IMG/VR virus record: IMGVR_UViG_3300025765_000001
Length of the DNA stretch: 64,000 nucleotides
Origin: a virus
Lineage: Duplodnaviria; Heunggongvirae; Uroviricota; Caudoviricetes
Strand: one strand, 5' to 3'
Both the position numbers and the translations under genes were made by a program. The notes below the pieces were generated by a model that was not told the origin of the DNA, did no database searches, and worked only from the letters and a program-made list of their open reading frames with translations. Numbering within the stretch: position 1 is the stretch's first letter; each line of letters opens with the position of its first letter. This document shows positions 1 through 52,313 of the stretch, one piece after another.

Positions 1-23
1 CTCAAGTCAATTCCAACCTTTGA

Positions 24-740
24 GGGGTTGTCTTTAGCTCCTCGACCGAACTGATTGTCGAAATCCTGTTTGGCGAAGGCGGCGACGACTCAAAGCAGTT
101 CGTGCATGAGTTGTACAATGCCTATCGAAAGTACGCCGCCACTCACGGTATCGGCGTAGAACTTCTCACCGAAGATGATGGTCATGTGATAGCCAAGTTT
201 CGAGGCTACGGCGTCTGGAAGCGGTTCCAGCACGAGTCTGGGAAACACTGCGTACAGCGTATCCCGCACTTGGAGAAGAATGGTCGGAAGCAAACATCCA
301 TGATCTCTGTTGCTCTGCTGCCCCTCTTGCCAGAGCGGGTTTACCCGCCTCTCAAGGAAGATGATCTGGACATTAAGTTCCAGACGGGGCGACAGAAAGC
401 AGGAGGCCAGAATGCAAATAAGGTAGCTAGTGCCGTCCGTATGACGCACAGACCTACCGGGCTTCAGGTCTTCATCAATGGTCGAGATCAGGGAGCTAAC
501 AAGAAAGAGGCACTCCGAATCCTAACGGCCAAGGTTCACGACGGACTATACGCACAGCAGGATAAGGAGTATAGCGAGTTCCGCAAACGTCAGATCGACG
601 GCGGTGGTCGTGGGAATAAGATCAGAACCTACAACTTCCTCGAAAGTCGAGTTGTAGATCATCGACTTGAACTCAAGACCTCGCAAGTCAAGCGAGTCAT
701 GAACGGCGAACTCGATATTCTTTTTGACAGTCAGAAGTAA
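24..740 (+). CDS. prfA: Class I peptide chain release factor, RF1-like (N-terminus unresolved)
   Basis: GGQ motif (AGGQNANK), RF1-type QRIP...GR..TS segment and C-terminal IRTYNF..SRVVDHR. The frame is open from 24 and encodes ELIVEILFGEGGDDS upstream of the ORF-track GTG at 102. Confidence 0.85.
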   Translation, partial: GVVFSSSTELIVEILFGEGGDDSKQFVHELYNAYRKYAATHGIGVELLTEDDGHVIAKFRGYGVWKRFQHESGKHCVQRIPHLEKNGRKQTSMISVALLPLLPERVYPPLKEDDLDIKFQTGRQKAGGQNANKVASAVRMTHRPTGLQVFINGRDQGANKKEALRILTAKVHDGLYAQQDKEYSEFRKRQIDGGGRGNKIRTYNFLESRVVDHRLELKTSQVKRVMNGELDILFDSQK

Positions 741-2041: not shown

Positions 2042-2329
2042 ATGGACCCGTCCGTGCAGAAAAGCGGATTCGGCATCTCTGTCGTGACGTTCGGGCGTCA
2101 CATCCACGACACGTCTCAAACCGAAGAAGAACTGACGAAAGGCGGTTTGCTGTTGTTGGACTTCGGTAAGGTTGATTCGCTAAACAGCGAAGACATGGGT
2201 ATCATGATTTCGCTCCACAAGAGATTACGAGCGGATGGTAGTTGGCTCGTACTCTTCAACTTGTCGCCCATGATCTACGAGGTTTTTGAAGTCTGCCAGT
2301 TTCACAAATACCTTTCGATTTGTCACTGA
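2042..2329 (+). CDS. STAS-domain anti-sigma factor antagonist
   Basis: GGAGG RBS; LLLDFGKVDSLNS.DMGIMISLHKRL...LVLFNLSPMIYEVF pattern. Confidence 0.8.
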   Translation: MDPSVQKSGFGISVVTFGRHIHDTSQTEEELTKGGLLLLDFGKVDSLNSEDMGIMISLHKRLRADGSWLVLFNLSPMIYEVFEVCQFHKYLSICH

Positions 2330-2518
2330 TAACAGACCGGCTCGCTGGCGATAGCTATCAGTTGGTTGCCGATGTCAGGCTCGTGGAACGCATGGCATTT
2401 GACGCCGAGAGCGTTGAGCCGACGAGTGGCAGGCTTGGACGGCCTGCTGAGGGATAGATAAGTCCTTGCGGACCAGGATGTACACGTAAACGTATTCACC
2501 CTACACGAATCCAGACAT
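2323..2518 (-). pseudogene. Peptidyl-tRNA hydrolase 2-like remnant (internal deletion plus frameshift)
   Basis: YILVRKDLSIPQQAVQACH in one frame and LGVKCHAFHEPDIGNQLIAIASEPV in another, with the middle missing; an in-frame TAG at 2501-2503 follows ATG 2518. Confidence 0.65.
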
Positions 2519-2919
2519 TGTACTCTTCTTTTTGATAACAGGGGTTAAATGGCCGGTAGCGACCCGATTATCCCACGCACGGTTCGCCACGGACAACCCA
2601 AAGGAAGCACTGGCTCCTGCTTTACGCCCGTTAGCGTGCTACCCAGATATCTAGTAGAAGGGCGTGACCATTTTTCAGGTCAACTTTAAGTGCGGAGGCC
2701 ACTGGTACCTCCCTCACACACCCCGTCACCCGCCGCCTTACACCAGCTTCAGGCGACGGACCAATTTCCTATGGCGGTGGAAAGCGAGGATTTATTTCTT
2801 CGCCCGTTCAAACCCGGCTACGCAAGCCAGTAATCTAGTGCGGTTCTGATTTCGCCGGATCAACCGCCAAACAACCCGGCTGGCCTCGTAGTATGACTTT
2901 CCACCACGCCCATTGTAGT

Positions 2920-3513
2920 TCATTCTCGGTCTGTGTCAAGTTTTTTGATGGCTTTCAACTCGACTTCGATCTGCGGGCTTTTGGTGATTGCCGTCCGCAG
3001 GACGTACTTCTGCTGGTAAGTGTCGAAGTAGTAGCGGTCGTACTGGTTCTCGCACAGGCCCTCGGTCCAGGCTTCCTTGAGATGCTTGGCCCACATGCGA
3101 TGGGCAATGATCCCATCGACTTGAGTTGACTTCGGCGGCGGGCCGAAATCGACGCCATGAATGGCCTTGAGGTTCTGGCGTGCCGCCTGTCGAACGAGCG
3201 GGTGGTTGTCTCGTAGCGAGTCTGTGTAGACCAGCTTTAGTTTCTTCTTGCCCGCCACGTTCATCGCTGCCAGCCGAACCAGTGGCTCGTCGTGCTTGAA
3301 CAGCTTGGCGATTTGGTCTTCGTTGAGGGCCGAAACTTGCTTCTGGAGTTTCGTGTAGATCGGCAGGTTCTTGAGATCGATGTCTGGGCAATCCTCGCAC
3401 CAGCAGTGGCGGGTCTGTTCTGCGTCCAGGTAGGTGAAGACGCCAACAGCTTGAGGGCGAGCGACAGCGGGAAGGGCAAGGGCGGTGACGAACACCAACA
3501 AGATGTGTTTCAT
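2920..3513 (-). CDS. Secreted protein with HEAT-like repeats
   Basis: Signal-peptide-like N-terminus; D.HPLVR.AA repeats; AGGAG RBS. Confidence 0.7.
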   Translation of the reverse strand: MKHILLVFVTALALPAVARPQAVGVFTYLDAEQTRHCWCEDCPDIDLKNLPIYTKLQKQVSALNEDQIAKLFKHDEPLVRLAAMNVAGKKKLKLVYTDSLRDNHPLVRQAARQNLKAIHGVDFGPPPKSTQVDGIIAHRMWAKHLKEAWTEGLCENQYDRYYFDTYQQKYVLRTAITKSPQIEVELKAIKKLDTDRE

Positions 3514-3577: not shown

Positions 3578-3605
3578 TCACAAGAATAATTCATGTAAAG
3601 CGACT

Positions 3606-3640
3606 AAAAACAGGGCCGGGGTTTTGAAGCCCCGGCCCTG
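3606..3640 (-). terminator. Intrinsic terminator for minus-strand tRNA(CUA) operon
   Basis: CAGGGCCGGGG...CCCCGGCCCTG hairpin with T5 tail on the minus strand. Confidence 0.8.
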
Positions 3641-3746
3641 GTGGGTGGTGGTAGTTAAGGTTTTCGCACGAGGACCACCACACCACAACCGATGACCCAG
3701 GGTTCGCCTAGGCCCAACTCCATAGTAGTGTGATCAAACCCCAATG

Positions 3747-3956
3747 TCAATCGATTTCGTAAGGGCCTTCGGGTTTTCGTTTTTCATCCGCTATCCAACG
3801 CCTTTCTTGTTCCTGACCCTCGACGTAAGCCATTCTCATCAAAATCTTTACGGCGGCTGGGTCGAAGGTCTTATCGTCTGGAAGGTTATTCTCAACCCAC
3901 CGATCTCGAATTCCATCTTTCAACATTTTACATTCCGAACAGGTATACTTCGTCAT
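3747..3956 (-). CDS. Hypothetical protein (CxxC)
   Basis: 69-aa ORF coupled to the upstream gene. Confidence 0.55.
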   Translation of the reverse strand: MTKYTCSECKMLKDGIRDRWVENNLPDDKTFDPAAVKILMRMAYVEGQEQERRWIADEKRKPEGPYEID

Positions 3957-4629: not shown

Positions 4630-4635
4630 GAGAAA

Positions 4636-4711
4636 TGCTCTCGGAGGGACTCGAACCCTCGACAGACATGGTTTTAGAGACCGCCGCTCTAACCAACTGA
4701 ACTACGAGAGC
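4636..4711 (-). tRNA. Amber suppressor tRNA, anticodon CUA (tRNA-Trp-like body)
   Basis: Cloverleaf GCTCTCG/CGAGAGC-A73; D-arm GTTC-AGTTGGTTA-GAGC; anticodon loop CT-CTA-AA (plus-strand TAG at 4675-4677); T-arm GAGGG-TTCGAGT-CCCTC; one C-A mismatch in the anticodon stem; CCA not encoded. Confidence 0.9.
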
Positions 4712-4725
4712 ATCGTCCTGGCGTC

Positions 4726-4754
4726 AGTATAGTGCGTTAGAACTCTTGCGTAAA
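4726..4754 (-). promoter_or_regulatory. Sigma70-type promoter driving tRNA(CUA)
   Basis: TTTACG-N17-TATACT just upstream of the tRNA 5' end. Confidence 0.75.
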
Positions 4755-5910: not shown

Positions 5911-7428
5911 TCACGCCTCGATCTGCTTTCTGAGACGATCAACGATCTCGGCGATCTGTCTCAAGGCCAGTTTCTCGGCACCTGGGACTATGATAGCCTT
6001 GTCCAAGCTGCCGTAGTGATGTTCAAGACACTGGAGCAACAGAGCCTTGATCTTTTCCTCGTCCGGCGAGTGCTGGAGGGTGCTGTTAGCGTAAAGAACT
6101 TCTAGCTGATGTTCCTTCTCAGTGGCCCACCGACGAATCTCTTCCTCTGGTACGTTACCATGACGAATCTCTTTCAGATGTTCTCTGGCACGCTGAATGT
6201 CGATGTCGTGATGTACAAGAATCTGTTCCGCTTCATCCAATAGTCTAACAACATGATAGGCGAACTTCATGTCGAACCCGTACTGCTCACGAATCTCTTT
6301 TCGCTTGCCGTGCGGGTCTTTGGTTCGCATCTTGTGTAGCTGGCTGTAGGCGTAGCCCTTGAACTTGTGCCATGCCCCTTTGTGTAGAAACAGCTTCCGG
6401 TTTTCACGGACCATCTCCCCGATCTGCATGCAATGTAGAACGCAGAATCTAGGAGTGAAGAGGTAGGGTAAGCGGCCAGCGAGTTATCATCTTGCGACGG
6501 CACTTTTCCAACCGCTCCCCTCCGAACCGGACTTGATACTTTCATGTCATCCGGCTCTCCAGTTAATTCCTCAACGAAGTCTTTGCCATGTGGACGGCTT
6601 TCCCGTCCTCGGACTACTACGGAGGCTCCGTTGCCATAAGGGTCGCCCCTTTTAGGCAATCTCATGTTCCGTGCGTAATTGACGATAGGACTGCTACAGG
6701 TTCCCGACTCATGCCCTTTAGGTCGCAGATTCGACTCGCTCTCACAGGAACGTCGTTTCGGGATTCGACAACTCGCTCTTACAGAAACGTCGTTTCGGGA
6801 TTCGACACCCTTGACTCCCTATCGTGTGAGAAACCAGAAGTATAGTCATCGTATCTGGCCCGATGATTTGACGGGCTGGGCATTCGGGTTCAACCAGTGT
6901 AGGCTTAACCATGCAGTCCGGGCCTCGATGGGCAGACGGCTTGATGACTTTGCCGAATCCCGCCTTTTCAGACATGCTGTTTTTCCCTACGGCTTTCGCT
7001 TTTAGGTAGGTCTGATGGCCCAAGAAGTTCATTTGACGTTCTTCCTCTTCCCGTATTCTACGGGGATCAATGTCGATCATGTTCGGGTTGTTCTCCATAG
7101 CTAGGCTGAAATACTTGACAATAGAGAAAATCGAGAAGTCGTGAGACCTCCCTTTCCCGGCCAGATCGTCAGGATCAACTACGTGGTGTTCCTGCCACTG
7201 CTCGAACCTCTTCTTCTGCCTATCGAAACCCTCGATCTCGCCTGCGAGATGGGGAAATACCATCTCCTTCGGCGGGATGCAGAATCCATAGATGTCCATG
7301 TCGTTCGTGTCACTAGACATACCGTAAGCGACCGAACCCATCATGGTTTCGTAGTGAATGTTGTCCGAGAGCCAGTGCGGGGGCCTAATTAGGCCCTTTT
7401 CTTCGATGGTTCTTACAGTGCTTGGCAT
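5911..7428 (-). CDS. Pol-beta superfamily nucleotidyltransferase (RlaP/nrdC.11-like), split by a group II intron
   Basis: 5' exon has GS.AYG...DT.DMD and ends at NNPNMID (~7070); 3' exon from 6462 reads LFTPRFCVLHCMQIGEMVRENRKLFLHKG. Confidence 0.8.
6463..7070 (-). mobile_element. ORF-less group II intron (~0.6 kb)
   Basis: 34-nt domain V GAGCCGGATGACATGAAAGTATCAAGTCCGGTTC (6557-6524) with AGC triad; DVI ending CTTACCCTAC; DIII-like GGACGGGAAAGCCGTCC; no RT ORF; 5' end not GUGYG. Confidence 0.85.
6734..6807. repeat. 37-bp tandem duplication inside the intron
   Basis: ACTCGCTCT(C/T)ACAG(G/A)AACGTCGTTTCGGGATTCGACA x2 with 2 mismatches. Confidence 0.9.
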
Positions 7429-7527: not shown

Positions 7528-7884
7528 ATGAAAAACCGGTATTACGCCCAAGTCCTGCGGGTCATTGACGGCGACACCTTCGAGGCTTTGGTTGACCTGG
7601 GCTTCGGCATTTCGCAGAAATTCAAGGTCCGACTCGACGGGATCGACACACCAGAGATCACGACTCATGCTGGCAAGAAGATCAGGGAATTCGTGCGTCA
7701 ACTGATAGAGGGCAAACAAGTCATCCTGATCGAAAGCGGCACCGAGAAATTCGGGCGTGCCTTGGCTAAAGTAGAACTGGCAGATGGACGTGATCTAACC
7801 AAGTTCCTAATAGAGCAAGACGTGGGTATAGAATACCACGGCGGGAAGAAGAAAACAACCGTTTGTTCTATGCTAGCAATATAG
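7528..7884 (+). CDS. Thermonuclease (SNase-like)
   Basis: RVIDGDT..A.VDLGF...VRLDGIDTPE...KFGRALA. Confidence 0.85.
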   Translation: MKNRYYAQVLRVIDGDTFEALVDLGFGISQKFKVRLDGIDTPEITTHAGKKIREFVRQLIEGKQVILIESGTEKFGRALAKVELADGRDLTKFLIEQDVGIEYHGGKKKTTVCSMLAI

Positions 7885-8491
7885 TTTCCTGTTGGTTCGA
7901 CTGGTTTTAGCTAAGAGACTATATCTTTCCTTATTCATGTAAGCGGCTAGATTTTTCGCCTGCTGTCCGGGGAGGGTATCGGGCCACGGTAGATACTCGA
8001 ACTCAAACCCGAAATGCGTAAGCATCATTTCCAGGGCGGTTATATTCGGTTTTCCAATCAGGGCGTGAGTGTCACCGTTCACCGAAGAATCATTCCTCGT
8101 GGTAGTCGGCTCCAGAGTCAGTTTTAGAATCGGAACGTTGTTGTCGTCCTTCCAGATCACGATATCTAGAAGAATGTGATATGGGTTGAGCCGTTTCCAC
8201 TCCCTTAGAAGCGTCCAGTGCTGCATACAGTGGTGGAAATAGCCAAGGCACATGATTACGTCGAAACGCTCCGCAGGGAACGTCTCAATTAACTCGTGGG
8301 CGTCTGCCTCGATAAACTCGTACTGGAGCGGGCTGATCCCGCATCGGTTCATGTTGTCGATAGACTGTGCTATAAGCTCTGCCCTCGGCTCGATGCCTAC
8401 CACTTTTGAGGCACCCGCCTCCAATGCGGCAAAGCTCCACCTGCCGTCGTGCGAACCGATGTCGAGTACGGTTCTGTTCCTGAATATCCAT
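7873..8491 (-). CDS. Class I SAM methyltransferase, N-terminus apparently truncated
   Basis: In-frame VLDIGSHDGRWSFAALEAGA upstream of the ORF-track start; no clear in-frame ATG. Confidence 0.6.
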
Positions 8492-8542
8492 TTTACCCGT
8501 CTTCGGAGCCGAAAGCCCCTACATCGTAGATGCTTGCTACTC

Positions 8543-9523
8543 CTATAGCGGATTCCGGTCGAACTGCTTACTCCACACTTGTAGAGCCTTGCCTAGTGCC
8601 TGGGTGTATTGATCTGTTTTCCCTTGCAAATATGTTCCAAGCTGTATCATGCAACCTGTTGTGTTGGTTTCCGTAAGGTCGCAAAGGTCTATTGTTCTCC
8701 AGAACTTCTCGTTGACCTGAATCCCAGGTGCCTCTTTGACTAAGTTCACAAACGGATCGCTAGCACGTTGGTGTTCAATGGGCGGGTCGCCGACCGAGAC
8801 ATACCAGCCGAGATGGTCGATGATCTTTTTGAAGATGATTCCAAACCAGATGTCGTCGAACCTCCTGTAAGGAGAGTTCTCGCTCATCAGGGGAAAGTAG
8901 GTCAGCGGGGTTGCCTGCCGCTTGAAGCAGAAGTTCATTCCGCACAGCGGGAAATACTGTCCCTTTGGGATGATCCTGTTACCGCTAGGCGGGTCAAAAT
9001 TCTCATTTATCTTGCTTCCTATAGTTTGGATTGCGTCGTAGTCAGCTACCTTGCTCCACAACCCCATGTTTGCCACTACATTTTCGAGTTTACCTAGATT
9101 TTCGTATGGTAGGCCTCTAGTTCTCATTCCAGGCACCGACTCCACCCAGCGTTTGTGACTCTCCATTTTCTCTATGTGTGTCCTGAATATGGGAACCCGC
9201 CACTCTGGGTCTGGGTAGCAGTCGTCGTCAAGGGTCAGGACATGCGTGGCCTCCATCCAGTAAGCAATCAGGAAGCCAAACGATCTAATAGCACTGTCAC
9301 GTTTTGAGATGATCCAAGCGGCATCCCCAAGGTACTTGTCTATATCTTCCCAGCAGAAATGATGAAGATTCTTGTCTTTCCCAATGATGTTAAACGTCTT
9401 CTTGGGATTGTCTTCGACAATGACAACTTTGTTCCAGTCTCCCAGGCTGTGCCATGAATCTAGGAACCTATTTAGATGTGCCTCTCGGATGGTGGGCACG
9501 ACGAGGATTTTGTTCTCCATCAA
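8543..9523 (-). CDS. Reversibly glycosylated polypeptide / UDP-arabinopyranose mutase-like protein
   Basis: VPTIR, DSAIRSFG, TLDDDCYP, DYDA, PLCGMNFCF, FDDIW.G motifs. Confidence 0.75.
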   Translation of the reverse strand: MMENKILVVPTIREAHLNRFLDSWHSLGDWNKVVIVEDNPKKTFNIIGKDKNLHHFCWEDIDKYLGDAAWIISKRDSAIRSFGFLIAYWMEATHVLTLDDDCYPDPEWRVPIFRTHIEKMESHKRWVESVPGMRTRGLPYENLGKLENVVANMGLWSKVADYDAIQTIGSKINENFDPPSGNRIIPKGQYFPLCGMNFCFKRQATPLTYFPLMSENSPYRRFDDIWFGIIFKKIIDHLGWYVSVGDPPIEHQRASDPFVNLVKEAPGIQVNEKFWRTIDLCDLTETNTTGCMIQLGTYLQGKTDQYTQALGKALQVWSKQFDRNPL

Positions 9524-44281: not shown

Positions 44282-44691
44282 ATGGGAAGAAAAGCAAGCG
44301 TGGTTGGCTCTATATCGACATCGCCTTTCTGGTGTGTCTTCTCCTGATTGGAGGTTGTTGCGGCGGCTGTATCAGCGACAAAGGCTTCCATTACTCAGAA
44401 GGGCACCGAGATGGCTATATCCAGAAGTTCTCCAAGAAGGGGTTGTTCTTCAAGACCTGGGAGGGCGAGATGGCCTTGCCTGGGTTCAGGAATGTCGGTG
44501 CCGGTGACAACCAGACGGTCAGTAATGTCTTCGCCTTCACGGTAGACGACGAGAAGCTGATCGAGGAGATCAACAACCTCACCGCCAACGATTTTGTCCG
44601 CATCTATTACGATCAGCGTGTGCTAGGTTCGCCACTCCACGGCGAAACCGGGTACTTCGTCACCAAGGTAGAGAAACTTGAAAAAAGATAA
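44278..44691 (+). CDS. Membrane-anchored conserved phage protein
   Basis: TM helix then YSEG.R.G...KFSKKG..FKTWEGE. Confidence 0.7.
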   Translation: MNGKKSKRGWLYIDIAFLVCLLLIGGCCGGCISDKGFHYSEGHRDGYIQKFSKKGLFFKTWEGEMALPGFRNVGAGDNQTVSNVFAFTVDDEKLIEEINNLTANDFVRIYYDQRVLGSPLHGETGYFVTKVEKLEKR

Positions 44692-44782
44692 TCTCAACTG
44701 GTGCGGGAACCCCAAATGCAGGCATTAGGCATACCGGAGCCATTTGGTATGCCGTGCCTGTTAGCAAGAGCTTCCAAGGGAG

Positions 44783-45010
44783 ATGAGAATATACATTTCT
44801 CATCTTCCCCAATGGGAGCTATTTCGTCAGTGGAACGCCCTCAGAAGCTACATCGCAACTTGGTTTGGAGGCGAGCATGAAAGAAATAAGGGTTGGGAAC
44901 ATGGGGAAATCTACGGAAACCTGTAGATAGTTTTCTGGGCGAACATCAAGAAAGACCCGCCGAAGCCGAAAGCCGCCAAGACCCCGCCAGTCATCTACCT
45001 TCCCATGTAG
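44783..45010 (+). CDS. Small hypothetical gene with in-frame TAG at 44924 (not in ORF track)
   Basis: AGGGAG RBS, MRIYISHL...GEIYGNL*IVFWANIKKDPPKPK...LPM*. Confidence 0.45.
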
Positions 45011-51240: not shown

Positions 51241-51717
51241 ATGAAGGTTCTACATTCGGACGAACCAAATTTCGATGGCAGTGAGCCTGGAATCTTCTTG
51301 GCTGGTCCAATCCCCAGGAAGGTAGAAGTCCCATTTTGGCGTTCGCAAGCCGTCGAGCTACTCCGTGAACTAGGTTTCACAGGGGTTGTGCTGGTTCCTG
51401 AACGACGTGACTGGCAGAAACAGTTCACCTACGAGAATTAGGTGGAATGGGAGCGTGCTGGTCTCCAACTCGCAAGAGTAAATGTATTTTGGGTTCCCCG
51501 ATGTATGGAGACAATGCTGGCTCTTACCACGAATGTTGAGTTCGGATACTGGTTGGCGAAGTCACCTGAACGAGTCTTGTACGGCAGACCACCAGGGGCA
51601 CCGCATACCAAGTATCTCGATTGGTTGCTTCTATAGGAGCGGAGTGAATCACGCCCATATGATGATTTACGGTCACTCCTCCAAGCTGCCGTATATCTCG
51701 TTCAGGAGGGTTCATGA
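51241..51717 (+). CDS. Nucleoside 2-deoxyribosyltransferase-like protein interrupted by two in-frame TAG codons (51439, 51634)
   Basis: IFLAGP.PR...WR...FVPE, *VEWE, FWVPR, TTNVEFG, YGRP; frame ends in a TGA overlapping the next ATG. Confidence 0.75.
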
Positions 51718-52313
51718 AACGGTGGATTACCGCTGATTGGCATCTCGGCGAGGACCGCATGGCGATCTTGCAGCGGCCTTTCAAAGACCAACGTGATATG
51801 ATCGAGGCGTTGGTCGCTCGTCACAATGCACTTGTTGCCCCCGAAGACCTTGTGTACATGGTGGGCGACGTGTGCTATCAAAAAACACCGGAGTTTCTGC
51901 CGGAAGTGGGGCGTTTTAACGGCAAGAAAATCCTCTTTCGTGGAAACCATGATCGGGTGTTTACCGACGATCAGTTGCGAAAGTATTTCGCTCAGGTTGT
52001 TCCCGAAGGCACAGGGATGGAGTTGAAAGTAGGAGACATCAAGTGCTATGTCACACACTATCCTACTCGTTCCGTCTCAGATCGGTTCAACCTCGTTGGG
52101 CATATTCATGGTGGATGGAAATATCAATTGAATATGTTGAACGTCGGCGTGGATTGCAACCATTTCATCCCGCATAATCTCGATGAGGCCGTGCCCTTTT
52201 ACCTAAAGGCCATCACCGAATTCTACGATGATGATATGTGGGTTGCTTACCACCCAGCCAACCACAGTTACATCGGCAAACGTGGCAAAAAAGGTGTCTA
52301 CTTCAACGGGTAG
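51714..52313 (+). CDS. Calcineurin-like phosphoesterase
   Basis: ADWHLG, VGDV, GNHD, THYP, GHIH, NVGVD. Confidence 0.85.
   Translation: MKRWITADWHLGEDRMAILQRPFKDQRDMIEALVARHNALVAPEDLVYMVGDVCYQKTPEFLPEVGRFNGKKILFRGNHDRVFTDDQLRKYFAQVVPEGTGMELKVGDIKCYVTHYPTRSVSDRFNLVGHIHGGWKYQLNMLNVGVDCNHFIPHNLDEAVPFYLKAITEFYDDDMWVAYHPANHSYIGKRGKKGVYFNG

What the first reader, a model, noticed from the sequence alone, without database searches (positions are those of the whole stretch)
4636..4754. Promoter-driven amber suppressor tRNA(CUA) in a genome that still uses TAG as a stop: candidate partial or regulated recoding system
Seen: a full cloverleaf with anticodon loop CT-CTA-AA and its own TTTACG-N17-TATACT promoter. 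The body resembles tRNA-Trp but has A73. TAG still looks like a true stop at several genes (13423, 52313, 55552), yet other genes read through TAG in frame (1429, 44924, 51439, 51634). An RF1-like gene with an unusual recognition motif lies 4 kb away. Known: fully TAG-recoded phages carry suppressor tRNAs, and the E. coli tRNA-Trp amber mutant (Su7) inserts Gln. Inference: this phage may use conditional UAG readthrough to switch on selected genes, an intermediate state between code 11 and code 15.
Basis: partly seen in the sequence, partly recalled or inferred. Interest (0 to 1): 0.88.

Follow-up and report, generated by a model that had tools for sequence, protein, structure and literature searches.

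The report
Orphaned phage amber-suppressor tRNA cassette
A giant phage that uses the normal genetic code carries a real tRNA that reads the stop codon UAG; related phages pair this tRNA with a small hydrolase-like gene that begins with a UAG, but here that partner gene is broken, and a few ordinary genes have picked up in-frame UAGs.

Summary
The tRNA is real: minus strand 4711-4636, anticodon CUA, discriminator A73, Rfam 54.9 bits. Its TTTACG-N17-TATACT promoter has both hexamers conserved in a relative.

The host genome is a 436-kb huge phage with 62 tRNAs and a tmRNA. It uses code 11:
- TAG ends 26-29% of genes, many tightly packed.
- No 20-kb bin scores better with TAG as sense.

The tRNA is not the start of genome-wide recoding. 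It is half of a recurrent phage cassette that I re-tested here. Of 71 distinct PTH2-like phage genes, 45 begin start codon, 1-9 codons, TAG. Forty of those have a same-strand tRNA(CUA) within 5 kb.

A syntenic relative (L048) has the intact cassette. In this window the PTH2-like gene keeps ATG-TCT-GGA-TTC-GTG-TAG (2518-2501) but has lost 98 nt and 48 nt, so it is dead.

Two otherwise intact genes carry two in-frame TAGs each: NDT-like (51439, 51634) and a small Cys4 gene (44726, 44762). The relative has CAA, CTG, CAG and TGG there. This fits suppressor-tolerated nonsense codons, but recent pseudogenes are not excluded.

Site 1429 is unsupported, and 44924 is probably a true stop. The nearby RF1-like gene is not consistently linked. 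The scan has found this cassette before on other DNA.

The parts
4636..4711 (-). tRNA gene with anticodon CUA (amber-suppressor type); G1-C72, A73, loop CUCUAAA, no encoded CCA
   Evidence: ARAGORN; Rfam RF00005 at 54.9 bits. The syntenic orthologue L048:1598-1673 scores 56.9 bits and shows a compensatory 3-70 pair change, U-A versus C-G.
4726..4754 (-). sigma-70-like promoter TTTACG-N17-TATACT, about 14 nt upstream of the tRNA 5' end
   Evidence: Consensus scan, 9 of 12 matches. The -35 hexamer and the GCACTATACTG -10 region are identical in relative L048, while the spacer and flanks differ.
2323..2518 (-). Remnant of the PTH2-like partner gene. The leader ATG TCT GGA TTC GTG TAG is kept (TAG at 2503-2501). 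A 98-nt internal deletion causes a frameshift, and 48 nt are lost at the 3' end.
   Evidence: Weak PF01981 match with a stop inside. DNA alignment to the intact 120-aa gene L048:3720-4082, which has TAG at codon 6. The C-terminal piece matches phage PTH2-like P0153 at E 7e-6.
51241..51717 (+). NDT-like gene (PF15891), otherwise intact, with in-frame TAG at 51439-51441 (codon 67) and 51634-51636 (codon 132). Its TGA stop overlaps the next gene's ATG.
   Evidence: Pfam E 1.7e-13 across TAG67; 1281 homologues, best E 1.5e-49 over residues 1-149. TAG67 aligns with a Q conserved in at least 90% of sequences. The relative has CAA and CTG at the two sites. pN/pS is 0.38.
44678..44926 (+). Small Cys4 (CxxxxC...CxxC) gene with a TTG start and in-frame TAG at 44726-44728 and 44762-44764. 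The TAG at 44924 is probably its real stop.
   Evidence: 70% amino-acid identity to the relative's 71-aa gene L044:2207-2422, which has CAG (Q) and TGG (W) at the two sites. No frameshift; pN/pS 0.19.
20..740 (+). Nearby RF1-like gene lacking domain 1, with GGQ kept and PHL in place of PxT. It begins with a prfB-like +1 frameshift cassette, TTG AGG GGT TGT CTT TAG C. Listed as context only: no link to the tRNA is shown.
   Evidence: PF03462 and PF00472; prfA model 208 bits over positions 103-336 of 347; family alignment; cassette conserved in relatives.

Best explanation
The flagged element is a functional-looking phage tRNA gene with a CUA anticodon, transcribed from its own sigma-70-like promoter. 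The phage is a huge one that otherwise uses the standard code.

The tRNA belongs to a recurrent two-part cassette of large phages. The other part is a co-oriented PTH2-like (peptidyl-tRNA-hydrolase-like) gene. Its reading frame opens with a start codon, a few codons and then UAG, with no other start codon before the conserved fold begins. The protein can therefore be made whole only when the phage tRNA out-competes RF1 at that UAG (inferred). This makes a one-gene translational gate, not a change of genetic code.

In this phage the gate's target has decayed. The leader with its UAG at codon 6 survives 2.1 kb downstream on the same strand, but the body has lost 98 nt (a frameshift) and 48 nt. 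Two further PTH2 fragments lie 9-11 kb away.

The tRNA itself and its promoter are as well preserved as in a relative whose cassette is intact. It is therefore probably still made and charged by a host enzyme. No Gln/Glu-, Trp/Tyr- or Lys/Asp/Asn-type synthetase is encoded by the phage.

Low-level suppression by this tRNA is the most economical reason why two otherwise intact, conserved genes each carry two in-frame TAGs and no other lesion. In the NDT-like gene one TAG sits at a nearly invariant Gln. The inserted residue is probably Gln or Lys. That is an inference from the U35-dependent charging of CUA-anticodon tRNAs in E. coli, recalled and not tested here.

Shown: the tRNA, the promoter conservation, the synteny, the conserved UAG leader, the deletions, the cassette statistics and the TAG-only interruptions. 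Inferred: expression, charging, suppression and its efficiency.
For: - tRNA and promoter.
- Syntenic relative L048 has the layout MTase, promoter, tRNA(CUA), 245-aa ORF, 196-aa ORF, then an intact 120-aa PTH2-like gene starting MSGFL-TAG. It shows a compensatory change at acceptor pair 3-70 and identical promoter hexamers.
- Deletions in the window copy.
- My own survey of the cassette covered 80 IMG/VR loci, 71 of them distinct. Forty-five are TAG-gated, and 40 of those have a tRNA(CUA) within 5 kb, always on the same strand. One TGA-gated gene has a tRNA(UCA). Of 24 ungated genes, 18 still have a tRNA(CUA) nearby.
- The PTH2-linked tRNAs share the window tRNA's features: A73 in 38 of 66, G1-C72 in 43 of 66, loop CUCUAAA in 50 of 66.
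- Standard code: plus homologue lengths at the TAG stop of the phosphoesterase gene.
- TAG-only interrupted genes: the NDT-like gene and the Cys4 gene. Their pN/pS values of 0.38 and 0.19 compare with 0.18-0.29 for five neighbouring genes.
- In the roughly 17 kb comparable with the relative, TGA and TAA interruptions occur only in plainly degraded remnants, pyrD-like and RNA-ligase-like.
Against: - Nothing shows that the tRNA is expressed, charged or active.
- The anticodon stem has a C28.A42 mismatch.
- The dedicated target is dead in three copies, so the tRNA may be a relic.
- Codon usage alone predicts that about 50% of new nonsense mutations are TAG. Four TAGs out of four has a chance of about 0.06.
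- The NDT-like gene keeps 42 of 48 conserved columns, at the low end of its family (range 0.82-0.98), and has the highest dN of the genes compared.
- TAG ends about a quarter of the genes and back-up stops are not enriched. Efficient suppression would add a median of 25 residues to those proteins.
Confidence: 0.6

Rival explanations
1. Regulated partial recoding. The phage uses timed UAG read-through to switch on a chosen set of genes, and it sits between code 11 and code 15.
For: Two intact genes carry only TAG interruptions. The cassette family shows that UAG gating of a gene is a real phage strategy. Borges et al. (10.1101/2021.08.26.457843) propose that acquiring a suppressor precedes the appearance of in-frame stops.
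Against: The TAGs in the NDT-like and Cys4 genes are absent from the nearest relative, so they are recent and not a conserved design. There is no regional or genome-wide gain with TAG as sense. Counts of interrupted frames fit the mutational spectrum. Site 1429 is unsupported, and 44924 is probably a true stop rather than a read-through site. TAG is not depleted as a stop and back-up stops are not enriched.
Confidence: 0.15
2. Relic. The tRNA(CUA) is an orphan left behind after its PTH2-like partner died. It does nothing useful now, and the TAG-bearing genes are simply young pseudogenes in a decaying region.
For: All three PTH2 copies are broken. The anticodon stem has a C28.A42 mismatch. Other decayed genes are nearby. 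The RF1-like gene has lost the Thr of PxT that every relative keeps. TAG is the commonest expected nonsense codon.
Against: The tRNA scores as well as the orthologue from an intact cassette, 54.9 versus 56.9 bits. Its acceptor and T arms are perfect and its promoter hexamers are conserved. Each TAG-bearing gene has two TAGs but no frameshift, deletion or other stop. In contrast, the dead genes in the same region show deletions and mixed stops. pN/pS is well below 1.
Confidence: 0.2
3. The tRNA acts mainly on the host or against a defence system. It might cause read-through of host UAG stops, or act as a decoy or replacement in a tRNA-targeting conflict, with the PTH2-like enzyme rescuing stalled ribosomes.
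For: Iyer et al. 2021 (PMC7824862) place jumbo-phage PTH2 among ribosome-rescue and RNA-repair functions. Eighteen of 24 ungated PTH2-like genes still have a tRNA(CUA) beside them, so the pairing does not depend on the gate alone.
Against: No defence or nuclease gene was tied to the cassette here. The conserved UAG inside the partner gene points to decoding of a phage codon. Nothing in this window bears on host effects.
Confidence: 0.05

Closest known systems
Phage stop-codon recoding with phage-encoded suppressor tRNAs (TAG read as Gln, 'code 15'; crAss-like, Lak and other phages; Borges et al., 10.1101/2021.08.26.457843; Peters et al., PMC9523058)
   Same: A phage-encoded tRNA(CUA), a host that uses the standard code, and in-frame TAGs at Gln positions. 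The published model holds that suppressor acquisition by a standard-code phage lets in-frame stops accumulate.
   Different: The genome here is code 11 throughout. TAG ends about a quarter of the genes, GC content is about 50% rather than low, and there is no bias towards late or lysis genes. The conserved target is a single small gene, not a gene class.
tRNA(CUA) plus UAG-gated PTH2-like gene cassette of large phages
   Same: A same-strand tRNA(CUA) 2.1 kb upstream of a PTH2-like gene whose leader is a start codon, four codons and then TAG. The tRNA shares the class features A73, G1-C72 and loop CUCUAAA. An intact orthologous cassette exists in a relative.
   Different: In this window the PTH2-like body is deleted and frameshifted, so the gate has no working output. 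In-frame TAGs have appeared in other genes.
E. coli Su7 (supU), the tRNA-Trp CCA-to-CUA amber suppressor that inserts Gln (recalled, not tested)
   Same: The anticodon arm GGUCUCUAAAACC differs from the tRNA-Trp arm only at position 35. The best-scoring annotated phage hits are tRNA-Trp (84% identity, E 2e-8).
   Different: A73 and G1-C72 replace the bacterial tRNA-Trp features G73 and A1-U72. tRNA-Lys and tRNA-Asn hits score almost as well. The variable region is longer, at 6-7 nt.
prfB (RF2) autoregulation through an early in-frame stop codon
   Same: A translation-factor-type gene whose own synthesis depends on how an early stop codon is decoded. Here that is the UAG in the PTH2-like leader, and the CUU-UAG +1 frameshift site in the neighbouring RF1-like gene.
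   Different: In the PTH2-like gene the event is read-through by a dedicated tRNA, not a frameshift. The product is not the factor that reads the codon.

Membership tests
tRNA (Rfam RF00005) | Cloverleaf scoring above the family's gathering threshold (29 bits), with a 7-nt anticodon loop and U33 | tested here: met
   54.9 bits with the full model matched. The loop is C-U-CUA-A-A. There is one non-standard pair, C28.A42.
Amber suppressor tRNA | Anticodon CUA | tested here: met
   ARAGORN and direct reading. The same anticodon is present in the syntenic orthologue.
Amber suppressor tRNA | Demonstrated insertion of an amino acid at UAG | not testable with these tools
   This needs a reporter assay or mass spectrometry.
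Code-15 (TAG-recoded) phage | Higher coding density or score when TAG is read as sense; many genes with in-frame TAG | tested here: not met
   Code 11 scores 31585 against 30452, and no 20-kb bin gains clearly. Genes that gain number 10 for TAG, 12 for TGA and 7 for TAA.
Code-15 (TAG-recoded) phage | TAG not used, or rarely used, as a terminator | tested here: not met
   TAG ends 89 of 345 confident genes, including overlapping operon genes and a gene whose homologues end at the same residue.
tRNA(CUA) / UAG-gated PTH2-like cassette | tRNA(CUA) within 5 kb of a PTH2-like gene on the same strand | tested here: met
   The tRNA runs 4711-4636 (-) and the PTH2-like leader starts at 2518 (-). Among 45 gated genes elsewhere, 40 show the same arrangement.
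tRNA(CUA) / UAG-gated PTH2-like cassette | A start codon, at most 9 codons, then an in-frame TAG, with no canonical start before the first beta strand | tested here: met
   ATG TCT GGA TTC GTG TAG GGT GAA TAC GTT TAC GTG TAC ATC CTG GTC CGC AAG GAC. The relative's leader differs only at codon 5 (CTC, Leu, versus GTG, Val) and keeps TAG at codon 6.
tRNA(CUA) / UAG-gated PTH2-like cassette | Intact PTH2-like body of about 110-120 aa | tested here: not met
   A 98-nt internal deletion and a 48-nt 3' deletion relative to L048. The genome's other two PF01981 matches are an N-terminal half and a C-terminal fragment.
tRNA-Pyl (ARAGORN's label) | Pyrrolysine tRNA architecture (short D loop, 6-bp anticodon stem, 3-nt variable loop) and pylS/pylBCD genes | tested here: not met
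   The D loop has 9 nt, the anticodon stem is the ordinary 5 positions, and the variable region has 6-7 nt. The label follows from the anticodon alone. The pyl genes were not searched for.
tRNA-Trp-derived suppressor (Su7-like) | tRNA-Trp body with bacterial identity elements G73 and A1-U72 | tested here: inconclusive
   The best hits are annotated tRNA-Trp, but tRNA-Lys, tRNA-Asn, tRNA-Arg and tRNA-Thr hits are close. A73 and G1-C72 do not fit bacterial tRNA-Trp (identity rules recalled, not tested).
Class I release factor RF1 (the neighbouring gene) | Four domains, a PxT recognition tripeptide and GGQ | tested here: not met
   Domain 1 is absent: the prfA model matches positions 103-336 of 347 at 208 bits, below the 400-bit cut-off. 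The tripeptide is PHL where 19 relatives have Px[T/N], nearly all PxT. GGQ is present.

The most novel reading that the evidence does not exclude
This phage is caught at the first step of a genetic-code change. A suppressor tRNA that evolved to gate one gene (PTH2-like) has outlived that gene. It now lets in-frame TAGs persist in ordinary, still-selected genes of a GC-balanced huge phage. That would be incipient TAG-to-sense recoding arising from a dedicated regulatory tRNA, rather than from stop-codon depletion in a low-GC genome.
Probability: 0.3. Interest if true: 0.8.

Novelty: new variant of a known kind. Interest (0 to 1): 0.6.

Why it matters
Suppressor tRNAs in standard-code phages have had no known target. 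Here, and in 40 of 45 gated cases that I re-counted, the tRNA sits beside a PTH2-like gene that cannot be translated whole without it. That gives these tRNAs a concrete and testable job: a one-codon translational switch.

This window adds a natural experiment. The switch's output is dead and the tRNA persists. TAG-only interruptions appear in two otherwise conserved genes where a close relative has sense codons.

If suppression is confirmed, the locus shows how a regulatory suppressor could seed a code change. It would also provide a matched pair of phages, one with an intact cassette and one with a broken one, for testing the idea.

Tried and rejected
- Searches for close relatives with single proteins in IMG/VR found nothing. 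Relatives came instead from protein-cluster look-ups and their contigs.
- Genome-wide or regional TAG recoding is rejected.
- Excess of back-up stops after TAG: none found.
- TAG-interrupted coding-like frames are 2-2.5 times commoner than TGA or TAA ones. Codon usage predicts 50:20:30, so this is not evidence by itself.
- Methyltransferase at 7873-8640 (-): motif I lies upstream of the first canonical start, and a TAG lies 41 codons before it. The stretch between is poorly coding, so this case is left ambiguous.
- Site 1429: no support.
- tRNA(UCA) at genome 191389-191459 scores 41.3 bits, but it has three mismatched acceptor pairs and G33. I do not treat it as a working opal suppressor.
- I first read the RF1-like gene as needing UGA read-through. 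I replaced this with a +1 frameshift at CUU UAG C.
- A conserved link between RF1-like genes and the cassette is rejected: 4 of 97 loci.
- A protein search of this genome with the phage PTH2-like protein P0153 found nothing; only the Pfam model found the fragments.
- Candidate TAG-interrupted genes at genome 172094, 328350, 289415 and 92741 have no Pfam family and were not pursued.

Full report
**Observation**

The window is bases 214608-278607 of a 435,946-bp virus record. The record carries 62 tRNA genes and a tmRNA, so it is a huge phage.

At the flagged place ARAGORN finds a tRNA with anticodon CTA on the minus strand, 4635-4712. Rfam's tRNA model scores 54.9 bits at 4636-4711. Reading the strand directly gives:
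- a perfect 7-bp acceptor stem, GCUCUCG/CGAGAGC;
- discriminator A73;
- anticodon loop CU-CUA-AA;
- a perfect T arm;
- a 6-7-nt variable region;
- one C28.A42 mismatch in the anticodon stem.

No CCA is encoded, but almost none of this phage's tRNAs encode it. The promoter-like TTTACG-17-TATACT lies at 4754-4726. ARAGORN's 'tRNA-Pyl' label reflects only the anticodon.

**Which code does the phage use?**

I trained a codon log-odds model on 117 long ORFs and called genes under four codes.
- Code 11 gives the highest total score, 31585 against 30452 with TAG as sense.
- No 20-kb bin clearly prefers TAG as sense.
- Genes that gain from reading a stop as sense number 10 for TAG, 12 for TGA and 7 for TAA.
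- TAG ends 89 of 345 confident genes, including overlapping operon genes such as 12812-13423/13414-13989 and 41655-43175/43178-43483.
- The phosphoesterase gene ending in TAG at 52313 has homologues of 199-203 aa that cover 99-100% of it.
- Back-up stops are not enriched after TAG.

The genome is a standard-code genome.

**What the tRNA belongs to**

Earlier notes of this scan reported amber-suppressor tRNAs beside PTH2-like genes that start with a UAG. I tested that lead here.

Pfam PF01981 finds three fragments in this genome. One is in the window, on the tRNA's strand and 2.1 kb downstream. It reads ATG TCT GGA TTC GTG TAG GGT GAA TAC GTT TAC GTG TAC ATC CTG GTC CGC AAG GAC. That is a UAG at codon 6, just before the first beta strand of the fold.

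A related contig, L048 (JGI sample 3300019458), was reached through the neighbouring methyltransferase, which is 58% identical. It is syntenic:
- methyltransferase;
- the same promoter hexamers;
- tRNA(CUA) at 56.9 bits;
- a 245-aa ORF;
- a 196-aa HEAT-like ORF;
- an intact 120-aa PTH2-like gene beginning MSGFL-TAG-GEHAYVYVLVRKDL.

The two tRNAs differ by a compensatory change at acceptor pair 3-70. Aligned to the relative, the window's PTH2-like gene has a 98-nt internal deletion, which shifts the frame, and a 48-nt deletion at the 3' end. The other two fragments are:
- an N-terminal half with TAG at the conserved Gln of the AAQ..HA motif;
- a C-terminal piece next to a TnpB fragment.

The partner gene is therefore dead here.

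**How general is the cassette?**

An alignment of two PTH2-like proteins retrieved 80 loci from IMG/VR, 71 of them distinct.
- In 45, the frame has a start codon 1-9 codons (most often 2) before an in-frame TAG, with no canonical start between the TAG and the conserved V.VR.DL strand.
- Of those 45, 40 have a tRNA(CUA) within 5 kb, always on the same strand.
- One gene is gated by TGA and has a tRNA(UCA) nearby.
- Of 24 genes with ordinary starts, 18 also have a tRNA(CUA).

The associated tRNAs mostly share A73, G1-C72 and the loop CUCUAAA with the window's tRNA. A pattern scan for the anticodon arm GGTCTCTAAAACC found 17 further phage loci.

I found no paper describing this pairing. Iyer et al. 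(PMC7824862) note PTH2 in jumbo phages without mentioning the gate.

**In-frame TAGs elsewhere**

NDT-like gene, 51241-51717:
- It matches PF15891 across its first TAG.
- It has 1281 homologues, the best aligning over residues 1-149.
- TAG67 falls on a Gln conserved in at least 90% of sequences, and TAG132 falls on a variable position.
- The gene keeps 42 of 48 conserved columns, where the family range is 0.82-0.98.

The closest relative, L044, comes from the same sample as L048. It has the same gene order, PARP, NDT-like, phosphoesterase, and an uninterrupted 156-aa NDT-like gene with CAA and CTG at the two sites.

A tblastn of the relative's ORFs against this genome revealed a second case, a small Cys4 gene at 44678-44926. 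It is 70% identical to the relative's 71-aa gene. Its TAGs at 44726 and 44762 sit where the relative has CAG and TGG.

Both genes lack frameshifts and other stops. Their pN/pS values are 0.38 and 0.19, against 0.18-0.29 for five neighbouring genes. In contrast, the pyrD-like and RNA-ligase-like remnants in the same region are heavily degraded and carry TGA and TAA stops as well as TAG.

This pattern fits tolerance of TAG through suppression. It does not prove it:
- Codon usage predicts that about half of new nonsense mutations are TAG.
- The TAGs are not conserved in the relative.
- The genome-wide excess of TAG-interrupted coding-like frames (33:14:12) is about what that mutational spectrum predicts.

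**Amino-acid identity**

The phage encodes MetRS and an ArgRS-like protein. It has no Gln/Glu-, Trp/Tyr- or Lys/Asp/Asn-type synthetase, so a host enzyme must charge the tRNA.

BLAST against annotated phage tRNAs gives tRNA-Trp as the best hit (84% identity, E 2e-8), with tRNA-Lys close behind. Against E. coli genomes, only tRNA-Asn appears, and weakly.

A73 with G1-C72 does not fit bacterial tRNA-Trp or tRNA-Gln identity as I recall it. From E. coli work on CUA-anticodon tRNAs (recalled, not tested), Gln or Lys is the likely residue. The invariant Gln at NDT codon 67 would be restored only by Gln.

**The RF1-like gene**

This gene matches the prfA model at 208 bits over positions 103-336 of 347. 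It belongs to a large family of short RF1-like proteins that lack domain 1, many of them on contigs of 150-600 kb. All 19 aligned relatives keep Px[T/N], nearly all PxT. Only this copy has PHL.

I first read an in-frame TGA as read-through. A prfB-type +1 frameshift cassette explains it better. The sequence at window 20-38 is TTG AGG GGT TGT CTT TAG C, and the RF frame is +1 relative to it.
- Three close relatives keep the cassette, with ATG, TTG or GTG at the same place.
- One of them has CTT TGA C instead of CTT TAG C.
- Two distant members have longer leaders that end in CTT TGA G or CTT TAG C.

RF1-like genes lie within 5 kb of PTH2-like genes in only 4 of 97 loci, so I do not count this gene as part of the cassette.

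**Verdict**

This is a suppressor-type tRNA in a standard-code phage, and conditional UAG read-through is the likely principle.
- The conserved target is a single PTH2-like gene, and it is broken here.
- There is no sign of a code in transition at genome scale.
- The TAG-only interruptions in two intact genes are the one hint of incipient recoding, and they need experimental testing.

Noticed in passing
window 20-740 (+); relatives L039, L040, L041-L043, L130, L132: The short RF1-like gene starts with what looks like a prfB-type programmed +1 frameshift cassette: TTG AGG GGT TGT CTT TAG C. That is a start codon, an SD-like AGGGG, then CUU UAG C, with the RF frame at +1. Close relatives keep the cassette with ATG, TTG or GTG at the same place, and one has CUU UGA C. 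Two distant family members have 19- and 24-codon leaders ending in CUU UGA G and CUU UAG C. The family's N-terminal F-E, F-D and F-S motifs fit C-UUU-GAN and C-UUU-AGY. An RF1-type factor autoregulated on UAG would be new as far as I know.
   Followed up: partly
window 303-311 (+) (codons CCG CAC TTG, in the QRIPHLEK motif of the RF1-like gene): This copy alone has PHL where all 19 aligned relatives have Px[T/N], nearly all PxT. Together with the dead PTH2-like gene, this suggests that the UAG-handling genes of this phage are decaying.
   Followed up: partly
window 6463-6559 (-): Rfam group II catalytic intron hit (RF00029, 60.6 bits, E 2e-9), lying between the ORFs 5911-6429 and 6742-7428.
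   Followed up: no
window 3605-3750 (-) and 2520-2939 (-): A strong promoter (TTGACA-17-TACTAT, 3750-3722) and a terminator (3640-3611) bracket about 110 nt with no ORF. A near-consensus promoter (TTGACA-16-TACAAT, 2939-2912) precedes about 390 nt with no ORF in front of the PTH2 remnant. These are possible small RNAs; Rfam finds no family for them.
   Followed up: no
genome 135176-135895 (L032), outside the window: An RmlC-like cupin gene (PF00908, E 7e-8) has an in-frame TGA inside the domain (GPHEH-TGA-EQTDYF). The only tRNA(UCA) call in the genome (191389-191459, 41.3 bits) has three mismatched acceptor pairs and G33.
   Followed up: partly
window ~46.2-46.9 kb and ~48.6-48.9 kb: Compared with relative L044, the dihydroorotate-dehydrogenase-like and RNA-ligase-like genes are reduced to short remnants with TGA, TAA and TAG stops.
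   Followed up: partly
whole genome: Nearly all of the phage's tRNA genes end with the discriminator followed by C-T rather than CCA. This is a conserved 3' trailer that may be a processing signal.
   Followed up: no
L063 (IMGVR_UViG_3300022723_000240): One PTH2-like gene is gated by TGA instead of TAG, and it has a tRNA(UCA) 4.6 kb upstream on the same strand. This is an opal version of the cassette.
   Followed up: no
L053, L058: In two phages the PTH2-like domain is fused behind an HD-domain protein, and the TAG gate (M-x-x-x-TAG) sits at the start of the fusion. In relative L048 an HD-domain gene directly follows the PTH2-like gene.
   Followed up: no
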